DNA of 64,000 nt from an uncultured Thermoplasmata archaeon (GCA_963748615.1 CAVVJQ010000002.1:17718-81717); one strand, 5' to 3'; positions 25,112 through 63,384 are shown, numbered from the stretch's first letter. Notes: generated by a model from the sequence alone, not told the origin. Made by a program: numbers and translations.

Positions 25112-25729
25112 TCAGAAGAGTGAGTCGTCATCGATCTCCTCGTTGTCCATGAGCCGCTTGAGTTTCATGGCGGAGATGATCCGGTCCTCGGGTGGGATCA
25201 GTTCCGATGATGCACCCTTATGGAGTTCGTGAACGGTGTCGCGATACACTGACCTGCTCAACACGCCCTGGATGAGTTCACGTTCTATCATCTCACCGTA
25301 ATCGATATCGTCCTCATCTGGCGCATCGGGCGTCTTGACCATGATCCGACCAGGCGCGATTGTTCCTGGCGTTCCAGCGCTGGCGGAGATGTTGGGCACC
25401 TGTCCAAGGATGGTCTGGCGACCATATGACCAGGGTCTCCCTCTGACCACCGGGGGCTTGTCGACTGCAGCTGCGTCCGTATGCGCACTCGACCTCGCAT
25501 CATATTCCTCCTTTGCTGGAAGCGCAGTCTCTCGAACAGACGATGACCGCCTTGGCCAAATGTCGCGATACGAAAACCCGGTTTCCGATCTCCCTCTGTT
25601 CATCATGAACAGGACCAGGATGAAGATCGCTGCGATGATGGATGATATCGAGATGATGCCTGCGAGCGAAGTGAACCATGATCCGCTGGATCCACCCGAT
25701 AGCGTACTCCACCTCAACAGCGGATACAT
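25112..25729 (-). CDS. TM segment plus ~160-aa acidic cytoplasmic tail; probably the detached C-terminal anchor of the upstream subtilase
   Basis: N-terminus GGSSGSWFTSLAGIISISSIIAAIFILVLFMMNRGR (N-out, C-in by the positive-inside rule). The start overlaps the subtilase stop region. The tail ends in DNEEIDDDSLF. Confidence 0.5.
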   Translation of the reverse strand: MYPLLRWSTLSGGSSGSWFTSLAGIISISSIIAAIFILVLFMMNRGRSETGFSYRDIWPRRSSSVRETALPAKEEYDARSSAHTDAAAVDKPPVVRGRPWSYGRQTILGQVPNISASAGTPGTIAPGRIMVKTPDAPDEDDIDYGEMIERELIQGVLSRSVYRDTVHELHKGASSELIPPEDRIISAMKLKRLMDNEEIDDDSLF

Positions 25730-28700
25730 GTTCGCTCTCCACGACAGTTGCCGGCCAGATCGTACACAGATACATAGACGTCCATGCCGTCCCAGAGCAC
25801 TTGCGAAGGCAATGTGGCCGTCAGCTCGGACCCGGACAGAGTCATCGGTATCGAACCGTAGCCTCCATCCTTCAGCTCGTAGTACACCACGCCTTCGGCG
25901 ATCCCGAAGTCGTCCGTGGCGGTTATCGTGAGAACGAGCGTACCACCGGTCACGAACTCAACTGGTCCAGCCAGCTGAGTCTGCGGCGGGGTCCCGTCAA
26001 TGTATATCGAGAGCTCGTTTACCGTTATACGCCCGGACATGTCAGTGGCGACCAGGACGAGTGCGTGCCATCCGAGGGTCAGCGCATCCGTTTCGATGAT
26101 CATCCCGGGATAACCTGTCACGGCATCGCCCCCGTCGAACGATAGGGTCACCGTCTTCAGGTGGCTGTCGCTCGCCTGAAGCACCATATCCTCGCCTTCC
26201 ATTATCGACTCGCCCGATGCGACTCCGACGATGCCTGTGACGGGGTCGTACAAGTCCATCGTGAAGGCGAAGGAGTCCTCGGCAGTGTTGTCTGCGAGAT
26301 CGTATGCGAAGACGTTCATCGAGAAGGAACCGTCGATGTTCACCGACGAAAGGGATACCGTGAATGTGCCGGAACTGGTCGTTTCGGATATGCCCAAAAC
26401 GCTCCAAACGGCGTAATCCATATTATCATCTGTGACCTGGAACGATACAATATCGCCAGGGGTGACATATGCGTCAATCTCGGGCCATATCAGGGATATC
26501 TCCGGTGGCGTGTCATCTATCGTGAAAGAGAACGAGAACTCCGACGATCCACCGATGTCGTCCGCAGCATTGACCGATATGTCGTAGGCACCTTCATCCC
26601 ACCCTTCGGTGGATATGATGTAGGGAGTTGGAAGGATGGACCATGGGCCTCCGTCGCTCCATGAACAGGTGATGTTGCCCGAGCTGTATATCAATATCTG
26701 CAACGGGGTACCTGAGTGGACATAGGAGCCGTCCTCCGGGCTGGCGAGCATCGCCACGAGGGTCGCGTTCACGATCTCAAAGTAGACTGATGTCGAACTC
26801 TCGTGTCCGACCGAGTCCATGGCAGTGGCCACGACCACGTGCATCCCGATGGCCCAACCAGTCATGTCGACCACGTACGGCGATGGGATGGTCACGAAGT
26901 CCGAGTCGTCGACCGAATATGCCACGGTCGATAGGTGCGAGTCAGACACGCTGATCACTATGCTGAACCCTATCGGGACCTGGCTCGCCATGATCGGCTG
27001 GATGATCTCCAGTTCGGGCGCGGATGCATCGACATCGAATGAATAGGATGCCGTCACGGTGAACCCGTCGTCGTCCATCACGGTGACTGCCAATGAGTGC
27101 ACCGCGTCGCTCCAGGAGGATGTGGATATGTCCCACGGCTCCGCCAGGGTGACATATGAGCCCCCGTCGACCGAGTACAACACTTCCACTTCGCCGTCAT
27201 CGATGACGTCCAGGTCTATGATGGCACCAGAGGCTATCAGGGAGCCGTCCTCAGGCGACACCAGCTCGATGACTGGCGCCACCGCGTCGCTCATGATGGA
27301 TGTAAGGGTGAAAGTGATGGTGACCGATTCGTATATCCCCAGATCGAAAGTGGCTGTGACCTGCACATTCTGCCCGGTGCCCGTGAACAGGCTCGTCGGG
27401 TTCAACATCCACTGGAACAGTATCTGGCCGTCGTGCGTATGAGTCGTGCCCAGGACATAGTCGTCGAGCAGCATGGCGACCTTGCGGTCGCCGGAGTACA
27501 GCTCGATCGGGACCGCTGCCGTCGGGCTGAGCGGGTTCCCGGACATGTCCGTGAGCTGACCTTCCAGCACCACCGTGACGGTCGCGTCCCTGTATTCCAC
27601 GGTGGATGTCTTCGGTGCCAGCTCGAACACGACTGGTATCTCGGGGAGCGAAGCCGAGGTGATGACTGCGGACATGTAGTTGGAGTACGAGTCCGTGACA
27701 ATGATCATGAGGTCTATGGATGTGGTGGCAGTGGTCGTCTGAATGGATGTGCTGTATGTGCTACCAGAGGACGATACTGCAAGGGACTCCCACGAATCGG
27801 TCGAGCCTGCGCGCCAGCTGATGGCAACCGAGACCGAAGACATCGTATCGATCACATCCAGTGACAGCGCGACCGCAGATCCCGGGACGAACCGCTGAGA
27901 CATCTCGAGGCCGGTCACCATGGGAGGGTCGCGGTCGACTGACGGGACCGAGAACCCTAGCTCCATCGCGACATTGCTGGAGATCTCGGATGTGGGTGAG
28001 TAGCTGATCCTCGCCTCATAGGAACCTTCGCCGAACAGGTCGAGCACGCGCTGAGCATCGGGCCTTGCCAGATACTCCGAGAGCTGGTATATCCCGACCA
28101 AACCCCCGTTACGGTACAGGTTCATGGAAGGGATGACCGTCCCGCCCACGCGTGCACCTGATTGGTCACGGAGGAGTGGATGATAGAGGACCATTGTATC
28201 TTCAGTGTTCTCTGTGAACAGTGACGGGTAGAACGGACCCGACCCGAGCCTCTGCTCCTCGAACGTCGGGTCGAGCGGTGTGACATAATTCCTGTCAGGG
28301 ATGTAGATGCCTGCCGCGACCGCTGCCTGGAGAACATAGTCGTAGTCGGCGACGAAGAACTGTCTCTCCGAGTACCCACCCATCACGTTCCTGGGGAAGT
28401 ACAGCTCGGAGAAGGTACCAGTCACGATCGTCGTCCTGGTCAGGCCTGAGAAGAACGGGTTGAGCGATGTATCAGTATCCCTCCGGATATAGAAGGTAGC
28501 GTCCCCGCCCATCGCCTTGTGGGTGCCCCAGTTGCACCAGGGGTCGGAGACCGTCCCTGGGATGTCATACTTGGTCTCGAACACGGCCGCATCGTCCTCG
28601 TCCCAAGTCAGCGTGGAAGGCATCGACGAGTCGATGCTGTCGAACTCCCATGCGAGCAAGTACTGGAGGTCCGCGCTCGCCTCGACCATGAATGCGGTCG

Positions 28701-31065
28701 ATGTGCCACTGGTCATCTCATACCAGTGTTGCCAGTTGAGGCTCATGAAATCCCACATGTCGGGAGTGTACGCGAACCCGGCGATAGATATGCCAATCTC
28801 GGCGGAGGTGTCGCTGACATAGAGAGTCATCGAATGGGGTATCGCGAACACCTCTGAGCCCACTATCGAATAATCCGAACCTGTGAGATCGAACGATATG
28901 TTCCTGGAACCCTCGTACCTGCAGTATACCCTGTAGTCCTTGACATAGATCGGCTGGCCACCATCTGTCTCGAGGTCGAGGGTCACCTCATGCGCGTCGG
29001 CCATGTAGATGTTCAGTTCGACTGTCTCGAGCATGCCGACACTGACCGTATCGGATAACACGTAGGCATCCGAGTAGGTGTACAGGAGTTGATGGCCCAT
29101 CGAATGGACCGCGTATGATCCTGACGGGAGGAAGAACGTGGCCGGCGGCACGGCGCTTATCATGCCCCGGTAGCCCATGGCAAACGACGCATCTGGGAGG
29201 TCATACACCCAAACGCCTCCGTAGGGGTCGAACACTTCCCGTCCGGACATGTCGTACACATGGACGTTCAGAGTGCTCAGGATGACGAACCCGAACGGTA
29301 TGGTCAGATGGCCAGTGCTAGCCTCCATCTCCAGTGTGCCTGCGTAGTAGCCCTCGTCGATCAAGGCCGCAGGAAGGTCTACTGTGAGCGTGACAGACCC
29401 CGAGCCTCCGGAGGGAATAGACAGTGAAACGGGAGACGAGCCTGACAGATCGGTCTGAACCGGGTCTGGCAGAGAGCCATTGGCTGTGAGCGAGAAGAAG
29501 TCGACCGAGGATATCGCGAACGATGCCGACGAGCCGGTGTTAGTGACCGACACGGTCTGCGATGAGGAGCCTGCGAGCCCATAGGAAATGAGTGGCGTGG
29601 ACGAGAACATGGTGGCCTCCGCAGCTCCAGGAGCCCACATCCCGCCAGCACCGGCAGCCCATAGCGATTCGTTGAGCAGCAAAGCACCGCTCACCACCGC
29701 CGACTTCACGTATGATGGTGTCCAATCAGGGTGCAACTGGAGCAGCAACGCGACGGCACCGCTCACATGAGGTGTAGCCATGGATGTGCCGCTCAGGCTG
29801 GCATATCCAGTCGGTGAGCTTATGACAGTGCCTGAGAAGGGCACGGTGGACACGATATCCACGCCTGGAGCCGATATCTCGGGCTTGACATTCATCTCGG
29901 GAGTGGGCCCGCGCGAGCTGAAGGGTGCGAGGTTACCATCGCCGTCCACGGCTCCGACCGTGATCGCGCTCGGCGCAAGTCCTGGTGTCGCGACGGTCCC
30001 CAGGGATGGGCCCTCGTTTCCGGCTGCGACGACGACCACCACCCCGGCATCAACGGCCCGCTCGACTGCCTGGCAGACAGGGTCGTCCGTGCCACCTGCA
30101 CCACCTAGGCTCATGCTGATGATGTCCGCGTGATCGCTCGTGGACCCGTCACCATCAGGGTCCATGGCCGCATCGATCGCTTCTATGACATCGCTCATGC
30201 TGCCAGAGCCGCTCGCCCCCAGCGCCTTGTACGCCAGAAGCTTGGCATCAGGTGCCACGCCAGGCACAGTCCCGTCAGCGGCTATCGTGCCGGCGACATG
30301 GGTGCCATGACCGTTATCGTCCATAGGGTCGGCGTCGTTGTTCACGAAATCGTATCCGCCGATGACCTTGTATGATGGGCCGAACCCACCGCCCAGGTCG
30401 GGGTGCATGTAATCGATGCCTGTGTCGATGACAGCCACCACTATACCCACGCCTGTGACCGATACGCCCAATGGATCGGTCATGACCCAGACCTCGTCCG
30501 CGCCTATCTTGCGGACGCCGTCTGTGCCAGTCGCGTTGAGTGCTAGGTCAGGATATATGCTGAGGCTCGGTTCCGACTGGATCAAGGATTCGATAGTGCC
30601 CAGGTCCAGGCGGGCGGAGAAGCCGTTCAGGCTGTGTGTGAATGTCTTCAGCGAAGAGACTGGTTCAAGCGGGTCATCGTTCTGTGCCCTAAGGGCGGAT
30701 GCAGAAGCATACTGGATTGCTTTCGCGAGAGGCGCGAAGTCATCGACATCATACGGAAGCGAGACGATCACGTCCACATAACCGTCGTCGTCCGCGAGTG
30801 CGGACCAGTCCCATGAACAGGCAGATGCGGGATATTCGTATGAGTCAGTGGCGCGTGACACATCCATGTCGGCACCACCGGCGGATGATAGGATGGACGA
30901 ACTGACGATAGCGAAGGATGAGAGTGAAAGAATGAACACGACGAGAAGTGGGAAGAGCCGCCCGGCTATCACACCCCTCTCGGGGGATGTCCTCAGGAGC
31001 AGACCCCTATTCCCGTGGGCCTCCGATAGTGACGGGTTATCTCTATACAAGAGTGACATCTCCAA
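25714..31065 (-). CDS. giant subtilisin-like serine protease (peptidase S8) with propeptide and a long array of Ig-like domains
   Basis: Catalytic triad motifs VAVIDTGIDYMHPDL (Asp), HGTHVAGTIAA (His) and SGTSMATPHVSGA (Ser), with oxyanion Asn in VVAAGNEGP. There is an N-terminal signal anchor. More than 1100 aa of beta-rich repeats follow (for example AYDLADNTAEDSFAFTMDL). Confidence 0.9.
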   Translation of the reverse strand: MEMSLLYRDNPSLSEAHGNRGLLLRTSPERGVIAGRLFPLLVVFILSLSSFAIVSSSILSSAGGADMDVSRATDSYEYPASACSWDWSALADDDGYVDVIVSLPYDVDDFAPLAKAIQYASASALRAQNDDPLEPVSSLKTFTHSLNGFSARLDLGTIESLIQSEPSLSIYPDLALNATGTDGVRKIGADEVWVMTDPLGVSVTGVGIVVAVIDTGIDYMHPDLGGGFGPSYKVIGGYDFVNNDADPMDDNGHGTHVAGTIAADGTVPGVAPDAKLLAYKALGASGSGSMSDVIEAIDAAMDPDGDGSTSDHADIISMSLGGAGGTDDPVCQAVERAVDAGVVVVVAAGNEGPSLGTVATPGLAPSAITVGAVDGDGNLAPFSSRGPTPEMNVKPEISAPGVDIVSTVPFSGTVISSPTGYASLSGTSMATPHVSGAVALLLQLHPDWTPSYVKSAVVSGALLLNESLWAAGAGGMWAPGAAEATMFSSTPLISYGLAGSSSQTVSVTNTGSSASFAISSVDFFSLTANGSLPDPVQTDLSGSSPVSLSIPSGGSGSVTLTVDLPAALIDEGYYAGTLEMEASTGHLTIPFGFVILSTLNVHVYDMSGREVFDPYGGVWVYDLPDASFAMGYRGMISAVPPATFFLPSGSYAVHSMGHQLLYTYSDAYVLSDTVSVGMLETVELNIYMADAHEVTLDLETDGGQPIYVKDYRVYCRYEGSRNISFDLTGSDYSIVGSEVFAIPHSMTLYVSDTSAEIGISIAGFAYTPDMWDFMSLNWQHWYEMTSGTSTAFMVEASADLQYLLAWEFDSIDSSMPSTLTWDEDDAAVFETKYDIPGTVSDPWCNWGTHKAMGGDATFYIRRDTDTSLNPFFSGLTRTTIVTGTFSELYFPRNVMGGYSERQFFVADYDYVLQAAVAAGIYIPDRNYVTPLDPTFEEQRLGSGPFYPSLFTENTEDTMVLYHPLLRDQSGARVGGTVIPSMNLYRNGGLVGIYQLSEYLARPDAQRVLDLFGEGSYEARISYSPTSEISSNVAMELGFSVPSVDRDPPMVTGLEMSQRFVPGSAVALSLDVIDTMSSVSVAISWRAGSTDSWESLAVSSSGSTYSTSIQTTTATTSIDLMIIVTDSYSNYMSAVITSASLPEIPVVFELAPKTSTVEYRDATVTVVLEGQLTDMSGNPLSPTAAVPIELYSGDRKVAMLLDDYVLGTTHTHDGQILFQWMLNPTSLFTGTGQNVQVTATFDLGIYESVTITFTLTSIMSDAVAPVIELVSPEDGSLIASGAIIDLDVIDDGEVEVLYSVDGGSYVTLAEPWDISTSSWSDAVHSLAVTVMDDDGFTVTASYSFDVDASAPELEIIQPIMASQVPIGFSIVISVSDSHLSTVAYSVDDSDFVTIPSPYVVDMTGWAIGMHVVVATAMDSVGHESSTSVYFEIVNATLVAMLASPEDGSYVHSGTPLQILIYSSGNITCSWSDGGPWSILPTPYIISTEGWDEGAYDISVNAADDIGGSSEFSFSFTIDDTPPEISLIWPEIDAYVTPGDIVSFQVTDDNMDYAVWSVLGISETTSSGTFTVSLSSVNIDGSFSMNVFAYDLADNTAEDSFAFTMDLYDPVTGIVGVASGESIMEGEDMVLQASDSHLKTVTLSFDGGDAVTGYPGMIIETDALTLGWHALVLVATDMSGRITVNELSIYIDGTPPQTQLAGPVEFVTGGTLVLTITATDDFGIAEGVVYYELKDGGYGSIPMTLSGSELTATLPSQVLWDGMDVYVSVYDLAGNCRGERTCIRC

Positions 31066-31260: not shown

Positions 31261-31743
31261 CTACTTGCGTCTCCAAACGAGAAGGCCGACCGCGATCACG
31301 CCCACGCCCAAGCCCGTGACGAGGACTCCGGCATCGGACCCTAGCTCGGGTATCGCATATAAGAAGTGCACATCGACGTCGAACTGGCTCGAGTCATCGG
31401 CGATCGTGGAGTTCGACGCCTGGCCTGCGGGTCCGGTTGCGATCACCTGTATGGTGTATCCAATCTCCCATTCGGCTGAGAGGAAGAGCCTGAGGTATTC
31501 GCCGTTCGAATCCGAGGTGGCCGTCTTTGTGGTCACGATCGATGCTCCGTCCTTGATGTTGATTGTGATCGGGATATCGGGTATCAGGGTGCCTTCCGAA
31601 TCGAAGATGAAGCCGGTGACGGACATCGGATGGCTCGCTGCGGCACAGTTGCTCGGTACGGCCATGGTCAATGCGATCAGTGTGATTGAGGCTACGAACC
31701 CGATGGAGAGCATCGCGGTGAAGAGTCTTCTAAACATGTTCAT
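31261..31743 (-). CDS. small secreted protein with a PEF-CTERM-like (PEL variant) sorting signal
   Basis: Signal peptide, a single carboxypeptidase-regulatory-like beta-sandwich (VTGFIFDSEGTLIPD...SDSNGEY), and the C-terminus YAIPELGSDAGVLVTGLGVGVIAVGLLVWRRK. Confidence 0.7.
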   Translation of the reverse strand: MNMFRRLFTAMLSIGFVASITLIALTMAVPSNCAAASHPMSVTGFIFDSEGTLIPDIPITINIKDGASIVTTKTATSDSNGEYLRLFLSAEWEIGYTIQVIATGPAGQASNSTIADDSSQFDVDVHFLYAIPELGSDAGVLVTGLGVGVIAVGLLVWRRK

Positions 31744-31881: not shown

Positions 31882-32376
31882 CTAGAGTGCCTTGCGCCGC
31901 TTCATCGAGATGAGTGCGACCAAACCGATCAATGTCGCAGAGACGATGATCCCAAGGGTGCTGCCGAACTCAGGTATGGCATATGCGAAATGCACGTCGA
32001 TCTGCAGGACAGGGGTCACGGTTGCCACGCCAGTCTCGCTATCCACGAGTGTGCTGTATGTCGCAGTGGTCTCGACCGTGTCGCCAGCAAGCCAAACGTC
32101 GAGTGGGAATGTCACGTCGTATCTGCCGTTTGAATCAGTCGTATCAGACAAAGTGGCTCCCGTCCTGAGGACTTCAACGAGAACGCTCGCACCTTCGATG
32201 GGCAATCCCTCGCTATCGTAGATAAAGCCATAGACCACGAGCGGAGCAATTCCCGCAGCGGCGTCATCAGCAGCGTATTGTATAACCATGAGCCCGAGAA
32301 CGATGGAGAGAGACACGACTGCGGTCATCCTCCAGCATTTCAGAGTGTTGAGAGTCATGTTGTCACTATCACCCAT
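31882..32376 (-). CDS. small secreted PEF-CTERM protein (archaeosortase substrate type)
   Basis: The C-terminus YAIPEFGSTLGIIVSATLIGLVALISMKRRKAL has the PEF motif, a TM helix and a basic tail. It is a paralogue of 31261..31743. Confidence 0.75.
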   Translation of the reverse strand: MGDSDNMTLNTLKCWRMTAVVSLSIVLGLMVIQYAADDAAAGIAPLVVYGFIYDSEGLPIEGASVLVEVLRTGATLSDTTDSNGRYDVTFPLDVWLAGDTVETTATYSTLVDSETGVATVTPVLQIDVHFAYAIPEFGSTLGIIVSATLIGLVALISMKRRKAL

Positions 32377-32451: not shown

Positions 32452-32901
32452 TCATCCTGTGGCTTGTTCGAAGTACACTGACGCGGGCCCGTCGAGTATC
32501 ACGAAGTACGCCCTGCCCTGGGTGACGGTGAAGTCACTATCAGAGCCAGAATCGTGGAACCCGGGTATGAAGCTCTTGTACGTGCCCGACTCAGGATCGA
32601 AGTACGATATCGCATACACCCTCGCGCCATGTATCGCATCTGCAATCGAGCTCGCGGTCGTCGGGGCAAGTTCCGTGTATCCCATTATGTTGACACCGCT
32701 GCTCAACGCGCCGACTGCATTCGCAGGCAGATCGCCAATCAGCGTGAACACAACCTCGCCGCTAGTGGTCAGGAAGTATCCGACGCCCAGTTCGATCTCG
32801 AAGTCGTCTTCAACATCGCCTGGGGTGTGGAACCCAGGTATGAAGCTCTTGTAGGTTCCGTTGACTGTGTCGAACTTGCTGATCGAAAGCAGCGTCAGGT
32901 C
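32452..32901 (-). CDS. C-terminal module of the giant adhesin (two copies of an unassigned ~70-aa domain containing YKSFIPGFH), in the +1 frame relative to ORF 32810..39283
   Basis: The frame is open from 32901 (just after an in-frame TAG at 32904..32902) and reads DLTLLSISKFDTVNGTYKSFIPGFHTPGDVEDDFEIELGVGYFLTTSGEVVFTLIGDL...ISYFDPESGTYKSFIPGFHDSGSDSDFTVTQGRAYFVILDG. The ORF track lists only the last 99 aa (32452..32751). Confidence 0.55.
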   Translation of the reverse strand, partial: DLTLLSISKFDTVNGTYKSFIPGFHTPGDVEDDFEIELGVGYFLTTSGEVVFTLIGDLPANAVGALSSGVNIMGYTELAPTTASSIADAIHGARVYAISYFDPESGTYKSFIPGFHDSGSDSDFTVTQGRAYFVILDGPASVYFEQATG

Positions 32902-35900
32902 CTACCGCAGTCGCGAGGCCCGAAGCACTCAGGCCGCCCGCGATCACGAGCGGGGAAGACCACAGGTTCACACCAGCGTCGAGCACGAACTTGATCTCGG
33001 GGTCCGGCGTCGGCAACATGTTGCCGAAGTCGATCCTGATCTGGACCGGTCCCATCGGGAACGGATAGATCATGCTCATCGTGCAGATCGGTCTGGTCGC
33101 GTAGAACCCGTACTGAAGGGTCTCGTTGACCCAGTACGTGCCCGGAAGCAGCTCGTCGAACTCGTAGTATCCGATGTTGTCGTAGTTGTCCGTGTACTCG
33201 ACACGGTCCACATACACGCCCGTGGTGGTCCAGCCCTGCAGGGTTATCTCCCAGTTGCCCAGACCGTACTCGTCATCGTCGAACAGTCCGTTAGGCCAGT
33301 ACGGGTAGTAGTCGCCATAGGTGTCGAGGAACTTCCAGCCGAACACGGTCGCGTACCTCACATTGCCGATGTTGACCCAGATGTCGAAGTACACCATCGC
33401 ACCTGCGACGCTGATGTGCACGGGCATCGGGGTCGTCGGGGCCCAGTCGGGCCAGAGGATCTCGTAGACATCGTACACGCCAGGCTGCACTTCGTCGAAG
33501 ACGTACTTGCCGGTGCCGTCCGTCACGTCGGTCCTGTACACGTACACGCCCTGGTCGGTGTAACCCTCGAGCACGATGGTCCATCCGGACAGGCCAGGCT
33601 CGTCGCCGTCCATCCAACCATCCAAGTTCTTGTCGTAGAACTTGTAGCCCTCGACCACTCCGAACACCGCGTTGCCGAAGCTCACGCCGGCCGCTGTGCC
33701 GCTGAGCATGTCGACCACGACCGAGGCCGGGGTCATAGGCACCCATCCAGAGGGCGCGTACTCCAACCTCTCGGACACGACATATGTCCCCGCTGGCAGG
33801 CCCGCCACGGAATAGAATCCGTTCGAGTCCGTCAGGCGGGTGAAGTTGAGCCATCCGCCCTTGACCAGCGTGCCGTTGATCCATATGACCCAGTTGGCCA
33901 GGCCCGGCTCGTCGCCGTCCTTGAGACCGTTCATGTTCCAGTCGTAGAACTTCTGACCAGTCACCTGTCCGAGCTTGAAGTTGCCGAACATCAGCTGCCT
34001 GAACATATCTCCCGAGATGACATCGAGTGTCATCGTACCGTCCTCAGGCGTCACATGCATCCAGCCTTCCCTGTCCTCCTCGACCACCAGGTACTCGCCT
34101 GCTCCGGTCAGGACGACATAGGCCTTCCCGTCGACATCCGTGTACACGACGAGCGGTGCATCGAAGCACGGCCCTGTGACCGTGAACTCCCAATCCTCGA
34201 TCGGGCGGTCGCCTGCGTTGTACACACCGTTCCCGTCCACATCCTCGTACTTGAACAGGGTGATGTCCACATTGTGGAAGTTGCCGAACGCCGGTATCTC
34301 GATGCAATCACCGGAGTAGACTGTGACGATCGCCCAGTCCAGGGTCGTCGGGGTCCAGTCTGCCCGGGCTTCCTCGTAGATGTAGTACCAGTTGCCCGCA
34401 AGCCCGCCGAAGTAGAACATGCCTTTCGCATCGGTGTGGGTCACATGCGTGCCAGGTATCGAGTCTATCACCATGTAGATGGTCCAGCCTTCGATGGCGG
34501 GCTCGCCCTCGTCCCAGATGCCGTTGCTGTTCAGGTCCTCGAACTTGTAGCCGTAGATGCTTCCGAGCTCGAAGTTCAGGAATGTATGTATCCTGATGCT
34601 CGCGCCCGAAGTCATTACCACGGTCTCGGATGGGTCATTGGTCGCGATCCAACCAGTCTTGGCCTCCTCGGATACCACATATATCCCGGGCCCGAGGCCG
34701 CAGAAGCAGTAGTAGCCGTTCGCGTCCGTAAGGGTCATGTCCAAGAGCATGATCGCGCTCATCGCACCCTCGGGCGTCTCTATCACGCCAGTCGTTATGG
34801 ACAGGTAGATCGTCCATCCAGCCAGAGGTGTGTCGCCCTCGTCCAGGATCCCGTTGCCGTTGACATCGACATACTTGTAGCCGTCTATGCAGCCCAGCTG
34901 GAAGTTGAAGAAGTCCACGCGCGACTCGGTGTGGCCTATGATGACCACTTCGACCTCATCTGAAGAGGTCGGGATCCAGCCGCTCTGGCCGATCTCCCAG
35001 ACAAGGTACGTCCCGCTCGGCAGTCCGGAGAACTCGTAGTAGCCGTTCGCGTTGGTCACTGTCCATCCGGTGAGATACTGAGGCGAGACGCACTGGAACC
35101 ATATGGTCCAACCGCTAAGGGCAGGCTCTCCCTCGTCCCAGACGCCGTTGCCGTTCAGGTCGTTCCACTTCCAGCCGAATATCTTACCCAGCTTGAAGTT
35201 GCCGAACTCGATGACCTGCAGCTCCTGACCTCCGAGCACGGTGAAGTCCATCGCGCCGTTGGTCTGGGTGATGCAGGTCCAGCCGATCCGCTGCTCCTCC
35301 TTTATCATGTAGAAGCCCGCGTGGTCGATCTGGAAGCCAGCGTAGCCGAACTCGTCGGTGTAGTCCACCGCGACCAGCACCCACTCGTCATCCTCCAGGA
35401 CATACAGCTCGAACATCCAGCCCTCGATCGGGACATCGCCCTCTCCAGGACCGTACCATCCGTTCGCCAGGATGTCATCGTACTTGAAGACCAAGACCGT
35501 CACGATCTCGAAGTTGCCGAACATCAGGCAGACAGGCTTGTCGCCAGATATCACAGATGTATCGAGCGTTCCGGACAGCGGGTTCACATGTACCCAGCCT
35601 GCGCGGTCCTCCTCGGTGACTGTGTATGTGCCAGCCCTGTCCACGCGGAAGTAGCCGTAGCCGTCCGAATCCGTGCATACCATGGCGTTGGTCACACCAG
35701 GCCCGGATATCGTGAACACCCAGCCCTCGATCGGCAGGTCGTACATCTGGTCATAGACTCCGTCGCTGTCACGGTCGTGGTACTTGAACACCACGATCCA
35801 GACATCCTGGAAGTTGCCGAACATGAGCGTCGCCGGCTGAGAGCTCGATGGCGTCTCGACCGTCATTGCGCCGCTTGCGGGGCTGATGTGAGTCCATCCC

Positions 35901-38900
35901 TCGCGGTCCTCCTCGACCACGGTCCACAGGTCGTAGTGGCACACGTAGAAGTACACATGCCCGCTCGAGTCCGTGCAACCTGAGTCGTACAACGCACCGG
36001 ACGATGTCAGCAGCTCGAAGTACCATCCCTCGAGCGGCGTGTCGCCGTTGTCGTATACGCCGTTGGAGTTCGCATCCTCGTACTTGAACACGTCTATCGT
36101 GACGCATCTGAAGTTGCCGAACTCGAACACATCGGGCGTATCGCCTGATGAGGCGAAGTACCAGTATCCGCCGTCTCCAGGTGTGATCTGGCACCAGCCA
36201 GCCTGGAGGTACTCAGATATGTACCACAGGCCGCCCTGGGTCATCACCATGGTCGCGTAGCCGTCTGAGCCAGTCACCGCGGTGAGGTAGCCACCGTAGT
36301 CCATCGAGTACGCCTCGATGGTCCATCCGGCCAAGGGTCTGTCACCCGCATCGTATACGCCGTTGGAGTTCGCGTCCTCGTACTTGAAGACCGTGATCTC
36401 GACGTCCTCGAAGTTGCCGAACATTATCGGCTTCAACACGTATCCAGACATCAGCGAGAGCTCGGCGTGCGTGGATGTCGTAGGTGTCCAGCCGGCTTGG
36501 ACCAGCTCGTCCACCGTGTACATCCCAGCGCGGTCTACCACGACCGACGCGTAGCCATCTGGCCCGGTCACTATGACCGTGCCTGATCCGGCCCACGGAC
36601 CTGTCACGAGGAACTCCCAATCAGCGAGAGGTCGGTCCTCTTCGTCATAGTATCCATCGCCGTCCATGTCCTCGAACTTGAACACGGTTATGGTGACATC
36701 GTGGAAGTTGCCGAACATCTGCAGGGGCACCTCGGTCCCAGACTCGATGCTCACCAGGCTCATGCCGATGGCAGGGTTGATCGCTGTCCAGTCTGCGCGG
36801 TCCTCCTCTACGAGGGTGTACATCCCGGACCTGTTCACTGTCAGGACCAGCATGCCGTACTCGTCCGTGTAGCCGGAGTAGACCGTGCCGTCATCGCGTA
36901 CGAGCTCGAAGTACCAGCCCTCGAGCGGGTTGTCGCACTCGTCGTATACGCCGTTCGAGTTCACATCCTCGTACTTGAATATCGGGACATCGACATCGAG
37001 ATAGTTGGCGAACCAGACATCCATCTGCCTGTCACCCGACAGCACCTCGATCTCGTAGTATCCGCTCAACGGGAGTATGTGGGACCATCCGTCCCTGTCC
37101 TCCTCGACCACGACGTATGTGCCGGCAGCGCATACGGTCCAGTGTATGTAACCGTCCTGGTCCGTGTAGCCCGAATCGAGCAGCAGCCCGTCCGGACCGT
37201 ACAGCTCGAAGTACCAGCCCTCGATCGGCTCGTCACCGAACGATGGGTCGTACCAACCGTTGCTGCACTTGTCCCAGAACTTGAACACGACGATGTCGAC
37301 GCACTGGAAGTTGCCGAACTCGAACCAGTACACCTCATCCATCGACTCCTCCTCGAGCGCGACGCCCGAGTATACCCAGAAGGTATAGTAGCCGTCCACT
37401 GGAGATATCATGCACCAGCCGTCCTTGAGGTCCTCGGTCAGGCCCCACAGGTCGTGCTTGCAGAAGGTCACTTGAACCGTTCCGTCCGGACCGGTCACGA
37501 CCTCCCTGTAATCGCCTCCGAGGCTGCGCAGATAGAATGTCCATCCAGACAGTGGCACATCGTCGCCGTCGAAGACACCGTTGCTGTCCACGTCCTCGTA
37601 CTTGAATATGGTTATGGTGACGCACTCGAAGTTGCCGAACATGACAACCTTCTGGCTCACATAACCGGACAGGACATCGACGTACTGGATGGCGGGTGTT
37701 ATGTTGCACCAGCCAACCTGCATCAGCTCCTCCACAGTGTACAGACCAGCGGCCGTCACCTCGACGGATGCGTAGCCCGTCCCATCAGTGACCAGAGTCA
37801 CGACGCCACCAGGCACGCCGGGCCCGGAGACGACGATCTGCCAGCCAGCGAGAGCGACATCGCCCTCGTCGTATACGCCGTTGGAGTTCACGTCCTCGTA
37901 CTTGAAGACCGTGATGTCCACATTGTGGAAGTTGCCGAACGCGGGCACCTCGCGACAGTCGCCCGAGTGTATCGAAAGAAGTGCCCAGTCCTGGGTCGTC
38001 GGGGTCCAGCCTGCGCGAGCCTCCTCCCAGATGTAGTAGTACTCATCGGGCATCAGGCCGCTGAACTCCCAGTACCCGCCCTGACTAGTAGTGGTCGAGT
38101 AGGTGGTGGGGTTCTCGTCCCAGACCATGTAGATGGTCCAGCCCTCGATGCCGGGTTCGCCTTCGTCCCAGATGCTGTTGCTGTTCAGGTCCTCGAACTT
38201 GTAGCCCCAGATCCTGCTGAGCTCCACATTGAGGAACGGATCGAGGGACACATCCGAGCCTGAGGATATGGGCACAGTGTACGACGCTGTCGTCATGTGC
38301 ACCCAGCCTTCGCGGCTCTCCTCACTCACGACATATGTGCCGTATGTGAGGTCCGTGAACTCGAAGTACCCGTCGGAGTCCGTCATCGTGGTATCGGACA
38401 TAGGTCCGGACAGTGTGATCAGCCAACCTGCTATCGGCATGTCGCCCTCGTCCAGGATACCGTTGCCGTTCATGTCCTCGTACTTGTAGCCGCTTATCGT
38501 GCCCAGCTCGAAGTTGAGGAACAGGAACTTGTACTCCACCGGCTCCATGCACATCTCAGGCTCGAAGACTATCTCGTACGGGGTCGTGGCCATCCAGCCA
38601 TCGGGCATCATCTCGTAGACCAAGTAGGTCCCGGGCAGTATGTTGTAGCATGTCTCCCAGTAGCCGAACTCGTCAGTGACGAGCTCGATATACACGTGCA
38701 CGCCATCGTTCCTGACACCCTCGACGACGATGGTCCAGCCAGGTATTCCGACCTCGCCATCGTCCCAGATGCCGTTGCCGTTCATGTCCTCGACCTTGTA
38801 GCCCCAGAGGCAGGAGTATGGCACGTTCCCGAACTTGATGTCCACGATGTCGCTGCCAGAGCAGACGACCAAGGTCACATTGTCCGGAGTCGTGTGGTAC

Positions 38901-49468: not shown

Positions 49469-49477
49469 CGACCGACA

Positions 49478-49732: not shown

Positions 49733-49867
49733 CGAAGGTCAGGGCTTCAGATAGTACAGGCCCCGCAGACTGAAGATGAGTGCTCGGTATAAGAGATTCA
49801 CGCATGCGGCGGTGCTTGATAGTTGAGAACAGATAGTTTTCATATACAACAACACTCTTCTCATTCG

Positions 49868-50023
49868 ATTCCGTTCATCGATGAGCAGGACGCGGCCACG
49901 GATACATTCATGAGCGATGAGGAAATTGTACGGTAGGTGGTGGAGAGGCTCCCCGGGTGGAACAGGGGCATGCCATCGCACCTTCCGCGTCAGATAGAAA
50001 GGCACGGAGCTGTGAAGGAATGA
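49868..50023 (+). pseudogene. relic 3' end of a third DUF4350-like gene, with an in-frame TAG; its stop overlaps the MoxR start (ATGA)
   Basis: Translation FIDEQDAATDTFMSDEEIVR*VVERLPGWNRGMPSHLPRQIERHGAVKE aligns residue for residue with the C-terminus of 20843..22003 (FTKEQATMPDAFLNDDEILRRVMERHPNWNKGVLSHLMRQLQRHGAVKK). The TAG at 49934-49936 replaces an Arg position. Confidence 0.6.
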
Positions 50024-50994: not shown

Positions 50995-51016
50995 TCTTCC
51001 CGTCCGGAGGAACTCG

Positions 51017-52438: not shown

Positions 52439-52449
52439 GAGAGAGCTCC

Positions 52450-58602: not shown

Positions 58603-58892
58603 CCCAGAGCCTCAGGTGAGGATTGCCGAAGGTACCATTTGTCCTTTTCTATTGGGGGAGCGGACGAATCTTGACGGGGACAAACTAGATATCGGAGCGA
58701 AGACAATCACATGACTGGGATGCACTGAGACTCTCTCAGCATTTCGACATACAGGAGAGAACTCGTTTGAAATATCTAAGTCAGGGACCAGCGACTCGCG
58801 ACGAAGGATCCAATTGAATCATGTTCGGTCAGTGCTGGTGATATTCCTAGTCCTGACTCTGACTGCGAGCATGACGGCTGGTCCGTTGTCAA

Positions 58893-59790: not shown

Positions 59791-60463
59791 ATGGCTCCAC
59801 CCGTGATAGAGATAAAGGACCTGGTCAAGACGTACAATGGAAGACAGCCGGTCCTGAGACAGCGTCTCCTTCGTCGTGGATGATCAGGACTTCGTGACCG
59901 TCTACGGCAAGTCCGGGTGCGGGAAGACCACGCTCCTGAACATCATAGGCGGACTCGACAGACCTTCATCGGGAGACATAGCGATAGACGGCACGAGCAT
60001 CGTCGGGTTGACCGAGGATGCGCTCGCCACCCTACGCCTCGAGAAGATCGGCTTCGTGTTCCAGGATTACAATCTGCTCCTCGACCTCACGGTCAGGGAG
60101 AATCTGGAACTTCCGTTGAAATTCTCAAAGAAGAAGGATGCGGGCAGGGTGGGAGAGCTGCTCGAGAAGTTCGATATTGCAGATATCGCCGGCGAGAGGG
60201 CAAACAAGATCAGCGGAGGGGAGGCCCAGAGGACAGCTATCGCGAGGGCTATGATGAACAACCCACGGATCATCCTCGCGGACGAGCCTACGGGCAACCT
60301 AGATGACGAGAATGCGGAGAATGTGATCGAAATGTTCCAATTGGCAAGGAAGGAGTTCGGTACCACGGTAGTGCTAGCTACACATGACCCGAGCCTGGCA
60401 TCTCATTCGACCAAGAGGATAAGGCTCATGGAAGGTTCCGCTGAACTTGAGAGTCAGGGATGA
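59791..60463 (+). CDS. ABC transporter ATP-binding protein (MacB/LolD-like), interrupted by a +1 frame break near 59858-59866
   Basis: ORF 59791..59883 reads MAPPVIEIKDLVKTYNGRQPVLR and then runs out of frame. ORF 59876..60463 (+1) continues (S)VSFVVDDQDFVTVYGKSGCGKTTLLN (Walker A), ISGGEAQRTAIARA (signature) and IILADEPTGNLD (Walker B). No permease gene is adjacent. Confidence 0.75.
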
Positions 60464-60549: not shown

Positions 60550-61494
60550 GTGGGTACTCAGTTGGCTGACGAGTTAGCATACATTGGAGCATTCGCAGTC
60601 GCTTTTGCGATGACATTCCTCATCATACCCTGGATGATGCCCAAGTTGAAAGCCAGAGGCATCGTCGGCAGAGACCTCAACAAGCCGGGTACCCCACAGG
60701 TAGCCGAAATGGGCGGGATCGCCGTTGTCATCGGCTTCTTTGCAGGCGTGAGCCTCCTGCTTGCTGTGGATGGCATCACCAATGTCTCGCTTCTGAATGT
60801 ATCATTGGCAGTCATCCTCGGCGCTGCTTTCATAGGCATGGTGGATGACCTCTTTGAGCTCAGACAGCGACAGAAGGCTTTCTTCCCGTTCCTGCTCGCG
60901 CTTCCCCTCGGAGCAGCCTTGGAACCGACGATCAACCTCCCATTCATAGGAGACGTTGATTTTGGACCATTGATGATCATCGCCGCGCCTTTCGCAATCA
61001 CTTGCGCGGCGAATGCAGGCAACATGCTAGAAGGATTCAACGGCCTCGGCACAGGACTTGGAATAATAATGTCTTCGACTCTCGTGATACTTGCATTCGC
61101 ACACAATAATCTGGATGGCGTCTACCTGCTCATCCCGCTCTTGGGATGTCTGGTAGCATTCCTGTGGTTCAACAAATACCCTGCCAAGATATTCCCGGGA
61201 GACACCCTCATGTTGTTCATGGGAGCAACGATAGCCGTCGCGGGCATGCTTTCGAGCCTGTACCTGCAGACCATCGTAATCTTCGTGCCTATGATCACCG
61301 AGTTCTTCCTGAAGATGAGAGGGCGGTTCAAGGCGGAGAATTATTGCTCCAATGCAAGCAATGGTCATCTCGAATACCACGGAAGAATCGAATCCATCAC
61401 GCATGTCTTCATGAAGAAGACCAGATTGACCGAATCCCGCCTTGTGAGCAGGATCTGGCTTCTAGAGGGCGCATCTGCGCAGCAGTCATTCTGA
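60550..61494 (+). CDS. aglH: UDP-GlcNAc:dolichyl/polyprenyl-phosphate GlcNAc-1-phosphate transferase (MraY/WecA family, archaeal AglH type)
   Basis: Motifs FIGMVDDLFELRQRQK, AGNMLEGFNGLGTG and IFPGDTLMLFMG, with ~10 TM segments. Confidence 0.8.
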   Translation: MGTQLADELAYIGAFAVAFAMTFLIIPWMMPKLKARGIVGRDLNKPGTPQVAEMGGIAVVIGFFAGVSLLLAVDGITNVSLLNVSLAVILGAAFIGMVDDLFELRQRQKAFFPFLLALPLGAALEPTINLPFIGDVDFGPLMIIAAPFAITCAANAGNMLEGFNGLGTGLGIIMSSTLVILAFAHNNLDGVYLLIPLLGCLVAFLWFNKYPAKIFPGDTLMLFMGATIAVAGMLSSLYLQTIVIFVPMITEFFLKMRGRFKAENYCSNASNGHLEYHGRIESITHVFMKKTRLTESRLVSRIWLLEGASAQQSF

Positions 61495-61591
61495 TCGACC
61501 TTACAATCTAGAAGCACCAGTAATCTGCGAGTGATGATAGCCAGCGAATTACGTCACCTCAGAAGATTCTCGTAGGCGGGACGGATGATCG

Positions 61592-61601: not shown

Positions 61602-61733
61602 CCAGAATTTGGACAATGAACGGCAGTAGCGCATAGTTCCTACTGACCATGCGACCCATCTCGAGGCAGGGACAAAAGGGTCGTCAATCTCAAGACAGGT
61701 CAGATAGAGCAGAATCCGAAGTATCGGAAGTGC

Positions 61734-63384
61734 TCAGAACAGAATCGCTGACGTCTGGAAGATGACGATATTATTTGACTCAGGACCGCCAACATAAAGG
61801 ACATTCGAGTTCTCAAGGACCGAGTTGACATAGACTGGATCCAACACGGGGTGGCCGCGAGGATAATCATTCACGCCAACCACGGTCCACTCTTCGAGAA
61901 GCATGTTCATTATGCCAAGAGCGGAAAGTTCGCCCGATACAAGTCGACTAGGCAGATATGGATCCTTTTCGAAATCGTACAGTGCTCGGGCGTTGTATGC
62001 AAGTCGTTCATCGCTTCTCACATGAGTCGAGGAGCCAGCAGAGTCATAGACCCAGCCGAGTGCATCGACCTCATACTCCTGAGAGTCGTGCCTATCCCCC
62101 AACAACGTCTCAGTCGCGTAGCCAAATGGGAAGGAGCAAAGGAGGGCGATAATGAGAACGCATACAACCACCTGCTTGTATCGAGTCTTCGCGAAGTATC
62201 CCACGGCTATACCCACTCCGAGCGCAAGAGCGATATCAGCGTAGTCGAAAGTCCTGTAGAATATCTTGTGTCCGTCTAGGTCAAACCCTGAAGTCAATGC
62301 GAACAAGAACAGTGTCAATACAGGCAAGAGAAGACCGAGAGGGACGGCGCGATATCGGGAATTCGAAAATGCCACCCGCTCGAGGCCAAACCATCCAAAC
62401 ATCACGATAATGCCATAGATCAGGCCGATCAGGAGGACGCTGGATGTGAATCCTTGCGAATAAGGGAACATCGGGTTGAAGTAGTCCATGAAGGCGGCGA
62501 AGACCACGACAGCTCCCACCGCTGGAGCAAACGACAGACCGGGCCAACGCTCCTTCCCATTGAGGGTCAGTGCTGCTATGAATAACAATGCAGAAAAGGA
62601 GAGGATCATGAAGATGACATTCGCAAACTGCACCATAGTCCGACAACCTCTGGAACGAGGTTCCGAGATAGTATGCGTATGCAAGAACAGATGCCGCTCC
62701 GATTATTGCAATATCAATCACATGCGATAATGATATGCGCCTCTTCATGACCGCGATGATCAAAGACCAACATGTCAGATATGCAAGGAACAAGTAGGCC
62801 AGGATAGTCGCGAGGTGATACGTCAGAGGGAGCGCTGCAAGGACCACCAATTCGAGAACAAGGAACCGCTTATCGGATCTGTTCATGTATGCGAGAGTCA
62901 ACAGTATAAGCAGCGCTATGCCGAGCGAGCCCTTCCAAGCGGATCCTGTCAAGTACACGAAGGTGCCCAGGAAAGCCAGAACGAAAGCGGTGGACAACGA
63001 TCCAATGAGACTCTTGGTGATCTTGAACGCTATGACGTATCCCCCAACAACCGTCAGAATGGAGAAGACAGCAATCAACACCTGGGAAATCGAATAAGTG
63101 CCCACCGAGAGAGTTGATGATGAGAAGGCGATGATCATGTTGTAGATTGGGGTGATGATGCTGTAACTGTCAATGTAGAAACTATCTCCAGGATACGAGA
63201 GGTGCCCCGAGGAAAGTATGTCATCCGCGATCCTCGCTTCCGTCATGCCGTCGTTATTGAAAGGCAGGGGCGAGAAGGAAAGGGGAAGAATTCGAGTCGA
63301 GAATGCGAGCACTGACAGTACGATCAATACCAACAGCCTCGGATTTAATGATCGGATCCGGGCCTTGATTGATGACCTGTTCAA
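61734..63384 (-). CDS. polytopic GT-C-like membrane protein with C-terminal extracytoplasmic domain, interrupted by a +1 frame break near 62627-62645
   Basis: ORF 62281..63384 is coherent to ...AYAYYLGTSFQRL and then turns to junk. ORF 61734..62684 (+1) continues MVQFANVIFMILSFSALLFIAAL... with more TM helices and a ~130-aa soluble end. The first loop NNDGMTEARIADD resembles the acidic loop of ArnT/PMT/AglB-like enzymes. Family is uncertain. Confidence 0.55.

What the first reader, a model, noticed from the sequence alone, without database searches (positions are those of the whole stretch)
25690..62645. Series of frame disruptions that are all +1; three sit on the plus-strand hexamer GGTCCT
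Seen. Clean single-site breaks, where the protein continues seamlessly in another frame:
- 39322-39337 (adhesin)
- 32895-32901 (adhesin)
- 59858-59866 (ABC ATPase)
- 62627-62645 (GT-C-like protein)
- Two consecutive breaks at ~25741-25750 and ~25690-25700 (subtilase to TVVESEHVSAVEVEYAIG to GSSGSW-TM tail)

Every one requires a +1 shift, that is one extra base or two missing bases. None requires -1.

Three of them coincide with GGTCCT on the plus strand: 32898-32903, 39334-39339 and 59850-59855. This holds although two of the genes are on the minus strand and one is on the plus strand. In all three, the downstream frame has a stop followed by GAC just 5' of the junction (TAG GAC C, TAG GAC C, TGA GAC A). 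GGWCC occurs roughly every few hundred nt here by eye, so the coincidence is unlikely but not impossible.

Inference: a DNA-level or technical cause fits better than translational recoding. One candidate is systematic base-calling error at a methylated GGWCC-type motif. Another is a site-specific mutational process. If the breaks are real, they indicate ongoing decay or phase variation concentrated in envelope genes.
Basis: partly seen in the sequence, partly recalled or inferred. Interest (0 to 1): 0.7.

Follow-up and report, generated by a model that had tools for sequence, protein, structure and literature searches.

The report
Likely assembly indels breaking archaeal genes
Six gene breaks in this uncultured archaeon's contig each come from one extra base that every intact relative lacks, and they look like leftover long-read assembly errors rather than biology, so the finding is ordinary.

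Summary
The six frame breaks are really in the sequence and all need a +1 shift. Alignment to relatives (uncultured Thermoplasmata) shows each is exactly one extra base. Deleting one base per site restores a 4150-aa adhesin, a 1983-aa subtilase, a 223-aa ABC ATPase and a 549-aa membrane protein, with no stop codons. All relatives examined are unbroken at these positions. Purifying selection is as strong downstream of each break as upstream.

"None requires -1" is wrong: the GT4 glycosyltransferase gene lacks one base at 61472/3. The GGTCCT link is weak. Two insertions abut the hexamer on opposite sides and the third is 10 nt away (family-wise P about 0.06, chosen post hoc). Comparable insertions in related contigs show no such link.

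Contigs of a Nanopore-only assembly (Microflora Danica sample MFD04716) that carry the same genes have their own private, mostly +1, often paired single-base insertions at other positions. Seven short-read assemblies have these genes intact.

Best explanation: residual consensus indel errors in a long-read metagenome contig (confidence about 0.8). Real recent mutation is the main rival. Recoding and phase variation are not supported.

The parts
25112..31065 (-). Subtilase (Peptidase_S8) with Ig-like domains, a C-terminal TM helix and a cytoplasmic tail. One 1983-aa ORF once two bases are removed.
   Evidence: Pfam. Repaired ORF has no stops. Orthologs are single ORFs in L023 (2024 aa) and L024 (1971 aa). 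P0001, P0003 and P0004 span both junctions.
25745..25746 (-). Site 5a: one extra base (gene strand AAC[TG]TCGTG; L023 has AACT-CGGCC).
   Evidence: A5. Protein lengths match P0001, P0003 and P0004 only if one base is removed.
25709..25710 (-). Site 5b: one extra base (gene strand GTG[G]AGT). After it the frame reads STLSGGSSGSWF, matching SSLSGGSGDAWY in P0001.
32452..44906 (-). Giant surface adhesin-like protein (DUF11/DUF7507, at least 14 SdrD_B/Cna-B-type repeats, duplicated C-terminal domain). 4150 aa once two bases are removed.
   Evidence: Pfam. Repaired ORF has no stops. L023 and L024 have single ORFs of at least 3742 aa.
39323..39324 (-). Site 1: one extra base (gene strand GC[TA]GTC; L023 has GC-GGTC).
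   Evidence: A3. Coordinates.
32896..32897 (-). Site 2: one extra base (gene strand CC[TG]ACG; L023 has CC-GACG). Abuts GGTCCT at 32898-32903.
   Evidence: A4. Coordinates.
59791..60463 (+). ABC transporter ATPase (LolD/MacB-like), 223 aa once one base is removed.
   Evidence: Pfam. Homologs P0007, P0008, P0127-P0131, P0133 and P0134 are all 223 aa.
59857..59858 (+). Site 3: one extra base (CTG A[G]AC). L001, L002, L008, L026 and L027 read CTG-AAC or CTA-AAC; more distant relatives read GAC.
   Evidence: A1. Multiple alignment. Residue 23 is N in nine relatives.
61734..63384 (-).
   Evidence: Homologs of 513-560 aa span the junction.
62625..62628 (-). Site 4: one extra base (plus strand CGC[A]AACTG; L028 and L027 have AA).
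   Evidence: A6. Three-way alignment. P0148 reads DYGAVTNVIF across the site.
60550..61511 (+). Glycos_transf_4 (AglH/GlcNAc-1-P-transferase-like) gene. One base is missing at 61472/3, so the annotated ORF ends early at 61494.
   Evidence: (relatives match only residues 1-306 of 314).
61472..61473 (+). Seventh lesion, of opposite sign: a one-base deletion (GGGCGC-ATCTGCG) relative to seven relatives.
32898..32903 (+). GGTCCT hexamer next to site 2.
39334..39339 (+). GGTCCT hexamer 10 nt from site 1.
59850..59855 (+). GGTCCT hexamer 2-3 nt 5' of site 3.

Best explanation
The breaks are residual consensus errors in a long-read (most likely Nanopore-only, self-polished) metagenome-assembled contig of an uncultured Thermoplasmata archaeon. 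Seven single-base indels (six insertions, one deletion) were left in about 37 kb, and the organism's real genes are intact.

Shown: each lesion is a single-base difference private to this contig, inside genes that are otherwise intact and under selection. Contigs from a documented Nanopore-only assembly carry the same kind of private lesions, while short-read assemblies do not.

Inferred: the sequencing platform of this contig. Also inferred is that the insertions arose during consensus or polishing, possibly where reads of co-occurring related strains were piled onto the contig.
For: 1. Each break is exactly one extra base against relatives. Removing one base per site gives ORFs of 4150, 1983, 223 and 549 aa with no stops.
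2. Every relative is unbroken at these positions. This covers L023 and L024 for the adhesin and subtilase, P0001, P0003 and P0004, the 223-aa ABC proteins, and 12 membrane-protein homologs that cover the whole query across site 4.
3. dN/dS downstream of a break resembles upstream. Adhesin: 0.20 upstream, 0.24 middle, 0.32 tail. Subtilase: 0.15 and 0.24. ABC: 0.04 over the 201 codons after the break, at dS 0.3-0.5.
4. There are no nonsense lesions in about 6900 repaired codons.
5. Four of the six insertions do not duplicate a neighbouring base and none is in a repeat tract. This is unlike slippage mutations (own knowledge: spontaneous indels concentrate in homopolymers).
6. Sites 5a and 5b are two same-sign insertions 36 nt apart.
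7. Control. ERZ25039527 contig_59604 is L008, the MAG MFD04716.bin.2.147. That project used Nanopore reads, Flye and one round of Medaka (PMC12313526).
   - L008 has 6 private inserted bases and no private deletions in 5 kb.
   - L028 has 9 private 1-nt insertions against 1 deletion in 4 kb.
   - L027 has one private +1 insertion in the same membrane-protein gene and a private 4-nt deletion in DUF1616.
   - Pairs lie 12-50 nt apart: 60917/60950, 62107/62119 and 61356/61405.
8. Seven short-read-style assemblies (L029, L030, L031, L034, L036, L037, L038) have ABC at 223 aa and, where complete on the contig, GT4 at 316-320 aa, DUF1616 at 317 aa and the AP endonuclease at 248-263 aa.
9. The window also has only private insertions in the conserved intergenic stretches at 57429, 58657-9, 58788 and 58803.
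10. Literature: more frameshift errors were seen for ONT than for HiFi in soil assemblies (PMC13087279).
Against: - The platform and read support of this contig are unknown to me.
- No same-strain independent assembly covering any site was found. The nearest relatives are about 89-90% identical in DNA.
- An insertion bias is not what I would have predicted for Nanopore consensus (own knowledge: homopolymer deletions are the classic error). It is inferred only from sister contigs.
- Two post hoc sequence coincidences remain unexplained: GGTCCT near 3 sites (P about 0.06), and ACGC/GCGT within +-9 nt of 7 of 20 pooled insertions (family-wise P about 0.05).
- Very recent real mutations would also leave dN/dS unchanged.
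Confidence: 0.8

Rival explanations
1. The lesions are real, very recent frameshift mutations (young pseudogenes or segregating null alleles) in this strain, concentrated in strain-variable envelope and glycosylation genes.
For: - The lesions are private to this lineage.
- Surface and glycosylation genes turn over fast. The membrane-protein gene is only about 50% identical to L008 and L001 although its flanks are 82-97% identical.
- A truncated SBP_bac_5 gene at 8581-9878 shows that some structural decay or rearrangement may exist in the window.
- Recent events would not yet raise dN/dS.
Against: - There are seven independent single-base lesions in 37 kb but no nonsense mutations.
- A strongly constrained ABC ATPase (dN/dS 0.04) is hit.
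- Most insertions are non-duplicative and lie outside repeats.
- A same-sign pair lies 36 nt apart.
- The same signature is seen at other positions in Nanopore contigs of relatives and in none of the short-read assemblies.
Confidence: 0.12
2. The breaks are systematic base-calling or polishing errors triggered by a DNA modification motif. This is a special case of the artefact explanation.
For: - GGTCCT lies within 10 nt of 3 of 6 sites.
- AGCGT lies within +-8 nt of 4 of 6 sites (P 0.01-0.03).
- ACGC/GCGT lies near 7 of 20 pooled insertions against 1.7 expected (family-wise P about 0.05).
Against: - The insertion sits 5'-adjacent, 2-3 nt 3' or 10 nt 5' of GGTCCT, so the geometry is not fixed.
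- Only 2-3 of 73 GGTCCT/AGGACC sites are affected.
- The pooled k-mer test did not rank GGWCC-type words among the enriched contexts. By eye, only one L028 insertion lies near GGTCC.
- All motif statistics are post hoc and borderline.
- Own knowledge: modification-induced Nanopore errors are mainly substitutions.
Confidence: 0.06
3. The breaks are programmed +1 ribosomal frameshifting or another form of recoding that reads through the extra bases.
For: All six listed breaks have the same sign. Site 1 (GCU AGU C) superficially resembles the yeast Ty3 heptamer GCG AGU U (own knowledge).
Against: - No relative has a shift at any of the sites.
- The six sites share no P-site or A-site codon pattern.
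- The 0-frame does not run into a nearby stop.
- A seventh lesion has the opposite sign.
Confidence: 0.01
4. The breaks are phase variation of surface genes by slipped-strand mispairing.
For: Four of the six breaks lie in two surface-protein genes.
Against: There is no homopolymer longer than 3 nt and no short tandem repeat at any site. Cytoplasmic ABC ATPase and GT4 genes are also hit.
Confidence: 0.01

Closest known systems
Residual indel (frameshift) errors in long-read, Nanopore-only metagenome assemblies, as measured by IDEEL-type protein-truncation tests
   Same: Private single-base indels split otherwise conserved genes. Density here is about 1 per 5-9 kb. Errors cluster locally. They are absent from short-read assemblies of relatives and present at other positions in Nanopore contigs of relatives (PMC12313526, PMC9262707, PMC13087279).
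   Different: The classic description stresses homopolymer errors. Here most lesions are non-homopolymer insertions, and the platform of this contig is not verified.
Modification (methylation)-induced Nanopore base-calling errors at restriction-modification motifs
   Same: Some lesions lie near GGWCC, and there is a weak excess of ACGC/GCGT contexts.
   Different: There is no fixed position relative to any motif, only a few per cent of motif copies are affected, and the lesions are indels rather than substitutions.
Programmed +1 ribosomal frameshifting (bacterial prfB, yeast Ty1/Ty3, Euplotes genes)
   Same: The protein continues seamlessly in the +1 frame.
   Different: There is no conserved shift site, no conservation in orthologs, and no stop or rare-codon stimulator shared between sites.
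Contingency-locus phase variation in surface genes
   Same: Surface-protein genes are interrupted by frameshifts.
   Different: There are no simple-sequence repeats at the sites.
Pseudogene accumulation in decaying genomes
   Same: Several genes are disrupted in one region.
   Different: Only single-base indels are present, with no stops and no relaxed selection.

Membership tests
Long-read assembly consensus indel errors | The lesion is private to one assembly; orthologs elsewhere are intact. | tested here: met
   All seven lesions are absent from every relative aligned.
Long-read assembly consensus indel errors | The gene shows no other sign of inactivation: no stops, and purifying selection persists after the break. 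| tested here: met
   Repaired ORFs have no stops. dN/dS downstream is about the same as upstream.
Long-read assembly consensus indel errors | The same error signature occurs in assemblies of the same technology and not in short-read assemblies. | tested here: met
   MFD04716 Nanopore contigs L008, L027 and L028 carry private, mostly +1, lesions. Seven short-read assemblies are intact (methods in PMC12313526).
Long-read assembly consensus indel errors | The contig was built from long reads without orthogonal polishing. | not testable with these tools
   The source record is hidden. I know only that the contig is 455,485 bp and is held by NCBI and ENA.
Long-read assembly consensus indel errors | Reads or an orthogonal platform contradict the consensus base. 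| not testable with these tools
   No reads are available. No same-strain assembly covers a site. A Logan contig from ERR12035938 carries an identical protein from elsewhere in the window.
Modification-motif-linked systematic error (GGWCC/GGTCCT) | Errors sit at a fixed offset within or next to the motif. | tested here: not met
   The offsets are 5'-adjacent, +2/3 and -10, and three sites have no motif within 100 nt.
Modification-motif-linked systematic error (GGWCC/GGTCCT) | A large share of motif copies is affected, or errors are enriched beyond chance. | tested here: not met
   Only 2-3 of 73 copies are affected. Family-wise P is 0.06 at +-16 nt and 0.80 at +-12 nt. GGWCC-type words are not among the enriched contexts in the pooled set.
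Modification-motif-linked systematic error (GGWCC/GGTCCT) | The motif is actually modified in this organism. | not testable with these tools
   This needs the raw signal.
Programmed +1 ribosomal frameshifting | The shift site is conserved in orthologs. | tested here: not met
   Orthologs are in one frame at all sites.
Programmed +1 ribosomal frameshifting | There is a shared slippery or hungry-codon motif at the shift. | tested here: not met
   The 0-frame codons at the shifts are AGU, GAC, AGA, GUU, UGU and GAG, with no common pattern.
Phase-variable contingency locus | There is a homopolymer or short tandem repeat at the frameshift. | tested here: not met
   The longest run at any site is 3 nt.
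Pseudogene decay | There is a mixture of lesion types (stops, deletions) and relaxed selection. | tested here: not met
   Only single-base indels are present, and dN/dS is 0.04-0.32.

The most novel reading that the evidence does not exclude
The extra bases are real. On this reading, the Thermoplasmata lineage (and its relatives in the MFD04716 sample) carries an insertion-biased, sequence-context-dependent mutational or editing process near ACGC/GCGT or GGWCC. That process would repeatedly break envelope and glycosylation genes, which would either be tolerated or corrected at expression.
Probability: 0.04. Interest if true: 0.55.

Novelty: not a real feature. Interest (0 to 1): 0.08.

Why it matters
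Mainly as a caution. If taken at face value, the breaks would suggest pseudogenised adhesin, protease, transporter and glycosylation genes, or exotic recoding, in an uncultured archaeon. The evidence says these genes are intact and that the public contig carries about one indel error per 5-9 kb in this stretch.

Practical consequences:
- The gene calls here should be merged: adhesin 4150 aa, subtilase 1983 aa, ABC ATPase 223 aa, membrane protein 549 aa, and GT4 extended to 61511.
- Similar Nanopore-only MAGs (L008, L027, L028) need frameshift-aware annotation.

The apparent insertion bias and same-sign pairing of the errors may interest people who build polishing software.

Tried and rejected
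- Exact look-ups of window proteins, to find an independent assembly of the same strain. Only one hit turned up: a 2.2-kb Logan contig from ERR12035938, away from all sites and without DNA. Four other look-ups found nothing.
- A chimeric protein query joining three junction regions. Only the first region returned hits.
- Near-identical junction-spanning proteins for the subtilase tail, ABC and membrane protein. None came from the same strain.
- Internal repeats of the adhesin as a ruler for the junction. Repeat lengths vary too much (my reading).
- 'Inserted base is always G' on the gene strand. This fits sites 3 and 5b and L027. Relatives favour other bases at sites 1, 2 and 4.
- 'Both alleles kept at a strain SNP'. 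This fits sites 2 and 3 and two of the eight L028 insertions, but not the rest. I keep it only as speculation.
- Supplementary tables of the Microflora Danica paper, to trace accessions. None are held.
- tRNA and Rfam scans of the window. Nothing was found.


Full report
What the window is. The window comes from an uncultured Thermoplasmata archaeon. Its Glycos_transf_4 protein (60550-61491) is 96% identical to that of MAG55 (L002). It is 90% identical to JAHIRF01 (L001) and 82% to MFD04716.bin.2.147 (L008). No tRNA or Rfam family was found. The region 25-64 kb encodes the following genes (Pfam):
- an S8 subtilase with Ig-like domains
- two small PEF-CTERM-like proteins
- a giant DUF11/SdrD_B-repeat adhesin
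- a MoxR/DUF58/DUF4350 cluster
- glycosyltransferases
- DUF1616 and proC
- an AP endonuclease
- an ABC ATPase
- a GT4 transferase

Checking the observation. Three-frame translation and a codon-usage frame plot trained on the window's long ORFs confirm the six junctions. At each one, coding continues in the +1 frame. GGTCCT is present at 32898, 39334 and 59850. It occurs 40 times on the plus strand, AGGACC occurs 33 times and GGWCC 229 times.

Relatives. One genome scan and one metagenome scan supplied DNA of relatives for all six sites. Protein searches and contig look-ups added more.
- L023 (JGI Ga0209706, 73-77% nt identity) is syntenic with window 43664-22514.
- L001, L002, L008, L026, L027 and L029-L038 (about 88-90% nt) cover 56.3-61.5 kb.
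- L027 and L028 (79-90% nt) cover 60.0-63.9 kb.

In L023 and L024 the adhesin is one ORF of at least 3742 aa. The subtilase is one ORF of 2024 aa in L023 and 1971 aa in L024, including the TM tail. P0001, P0003 and P0004 span both subtilase junctions. Every close ABC homolog is 223 aa. Twelve homologs of the membrane protein cover the whole query across site 4.

Exact lesions. Pairwise and multiple alignments show exactly one extra base in the window at each site (gene-strand sequences):
- Site 1: GC[TA]GTC, where L023 has GC-GGTC (A3).
- Site 2: CC[TG]ACG, where L023 has CC-GACG (A4).
- Site 3: CTGA[G]AC, where five close relatives have CTG-AAC or CTA-AAC (A1).
- Site 4: plus strand CGC[A]AAC, where L028 and L027 have AA (A6). 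The 90%-identical P0148 reads DYGAVTNVIF across the site.
- Site 5a: AAC[TG]TCGTG, where L023 has AACT-CGGCC (A5).
- Site 5b: GTG[G]AGT. This placement makes the window read EV-STLSGGSSGSWF, against EVSSLSGGSGDAWY in P0001.

Site 5b is therefore at 25709/10, not 25690-25700, and the out-of-frame middle piece is 12 codons. Protein lengths across the junctions match the homologs only under 'one extra base', not under 'two missing bases'.

Repair and selection. Deleting one base per site yields ORFs of 4150, 1983, 223 and 549 aa with no stop codons. Nei-Gojobori dN/dS against L023 is as follows:

| Gene | Segment | dN/dS |
|---|---|---|
| Adhesin | upstream of site 1 | 0.20 |
| Adhesin | between sites 1 and 2 | 0.24 |
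| Adhesin | tail | 0.32 |
| Subtilase | upstream | 0.15 |
| Subtilase | tail | 0.24 |

For the ABC ATPase, dN/dS is 0.04-0.06 over the 201 codons after the break, at dS 0.3-0.5, against five relatives. The segments that would be untranslated if the breaks were real are therefore still evolving like coding sequence.

A break of the other sign. Every relative matched only residues 1-306 or so of the window's 314-aa GT4 protein. The window lacks one base at 61472/3 (GGGCGC-ATCTGCG) relative to seven relatives. The conserved C-terminus ICAAVILIDLTI* lies in another frame and ends at the same TAG as in L027 and L028 (61509-61511). A systematic scan using intact ORFs of eight relatives as queries recovered sites 1-4 and this one. 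It missed site 5, where identity to L023 falls below its 45% cut-off. It found no further coding break in the covered regions, 22.5-44 kb and 51.7-64 kb. The coding tally is six insertions and one deletion. The window also has private insertions in conserved intergenic DNA at 57429, 58657-9, 58788 and 58803.

The hexamer.
- With exact positions known, the insertion is immediately 5' of GGTCCT at site 2, 2-3 nt 3' of it at site 3, and 10 nt 5' of it at site 1. Sites 4, 5a and 5b have no copy within 100 nt.
- In 20,000 random placements, some plus-strand hexamer is shared by at least 3 of 6 windows of +-16 nt in 6% of trials. At +-12 nt only two sites share GGTCCT, which happens by chance in 80% of trials.
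- At sites 1 and 2 the hexamer and the 'TAG GAC C' pattern both come from the codons (A/G)TA GGA CC(G/T), that is [I/V]-G-P.
- A different word, AGCGT, lies within +-8 nt of four sites (P 0.01-0.03).
- Pooling 20 private insertions from the window, L008, L027 and L028, ACGC/GCGT lies within +-9 nt of 7, against 1.7 expected (family-wise P about 0.05).

I regard both coincidences as post hoc leads, not findings.

The technology control. One search showed that ERZ25039527 contig_59604 is the same record as L008 (MFD04716.bin.2.147). L026, L027 and L028 are therefore contigs of that same Microflora Danica assembly. The project used Nanopore reads only, Flye and one round of Medaka (PMC12313526). 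Those contigs carry private single-base lesions at positions where the window is intact:
- L008 has six private inserted bases and no private deletions across DUF1616, the AP endonuclease and GT4. Its gene table shows GT4 as 179+137 aa and DUF1616 as 234+39 aa.
- L028 has nine private 1-nt insertions against one deletion in 4 kb. Its membrane-protein gene is in at least three pieces.
- L027 has a private inserted G in the same gene (A7) and a private 4-nt deletion in DUF1616.

Same-sign insertions come in pairs 12-50 nt apart in these contigs, as at the window's sites 5a and 5b. In contrast, seven assemblies with short-read-style contig names have no split in any of these genes, and wherever a gene lies complete on the contig it is full length. 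These are JGI Ga0180007, two megahit k141 assemblies, a SPAdes NODE contig, a Logan contig and two NCBI MAGs. The literature agrees that residual indels persist in such assemblies, more so in soil data (PMC9262707; PMC13087279).

Interpretation. The most economical reading is that the lesions are consensus errors.
- Arguments for: privacy of every lesion, intact selection, no nonsense mutations, mostly non-duplicative insertions outside repeats, same-sign pairing, and the matching signature in a documented Nanopore-only assembly.
- Caveats: I could not see the reads, the platform of this contig is unverified, and no same-strain independent assembly covered a site.

The concentration in 'envelope genes' is not significant. 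The adhesin and subtilase make up about 29% of the window's length and hold four of the seven lesions. A cytoplasmic ATPase and a GT4 enzyme are also hit. Strain-variable surface and glycosylation loci are also where mixed-strain pile-ups would be worst (inference).

Rivals.
- Real recent mutations (about 0.12) cannot be excluded without reads.
- A modification-motif error (about 0.06) is a sub-case of the artefact explanation and lacks positional consistency.
- Programmed +1 frameshifting and phase variation are effectively excluded. They lack conservation, a shared motif and repeats.

Verdict. Interest is low.

Noticed in passing
window 61472-61511 (GT4 gene 60550-61511, + strand): A one-base deletion relative to seven relatives shifts the last 13 codons, so the annotated ORF ends early at 61494.
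   Followed up: yes
window 8581-9878 (- strand), next to the paralog at 10019-14758: A truncated SBP_bac_5 gene. Homologs of 620-2275 aa match only up to residue ~265 (window ~9087). The sequence then continues in another frame as an Ig-like domain plus TM tail, 44% identical to the paralog's C-terminus. This is a large internal deletion or a misassembly, not a single-base lesion.
   Followed up: partly
window sites plus L008, L027, L028 insertion sites: ACGC/GCGT lies within +-9 nt of 7 of 20 private single-base insertions (1.7 expected; family-wise P about 0.05). AGCGT lies within +-8 nt of 4 of the 6 window sites. Both are post hoc; they may reflect an error context or chance.
   Followed up: partly
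L008/L033, L027/L032, L028 (ENA ERZ25039527; MFD04716 Nanopore assembly): Public Nanopore-only contigs of relatives carry many private, mostly +1, single-base insertions, often in same-sign pairs 12-50 nt apart. They split GT4, DUF1616, the AP endonuclease and the membrane-protein gene. Short-read assemblies of the same genes are intact.
   Followed up: yes
window 57429, 58657-58659, 58788, 58803: Window-private inserted bases in otherwise conserved intergenic DNA, relative to five relatives. No window-private deletions occur in that 4-kb block.
   Followed up: partly
window 24114-25106 (+), 31261-31743 (-), 31882-32376 (-): An exosortase/archaeosortase-like gene lies next to the subtilase. 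Two small secreted proteins end in PEF/PEL-G-S plus a TM helix plus a basic tail (PEF-CTERM-like sorting signals).
   Followed up: no
window 18648-24026 and 46180-52959 (+): Two paralogous clusters encode a Big_3_5 protein, DUF4350, DUF58 and a small ORF. Only the second cluster includes a MoxR AAA_3 ATPase (49957-50994).
   Followed up: no
window 61734-63384 versus L008, L001, L027, L028: The membrane-protein gene is only about 47-55% identical in protein to the copy in L008 and L001, although flanking genes are 82-97% identical. L027 and L028 carry a much closer version (80-90%). The glycosylation locus is a strain-variable island.
   Followed up: partly
window 59858-59890 (ABC ATPase residues 23-32): Four of the six amino-acid differences between the repaired ABC protein and its closest homolog (P0007) fall within ten residues at and just after the inserted base.
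   Followed up: no
window 7090-8538 (+): An MttB-family (trimethylamine methyltransferase-like) gene has an uninterrupted 482-aa ORF, so there is no in-frame TAG (pyrrolysine) codon.
   Followed up: no
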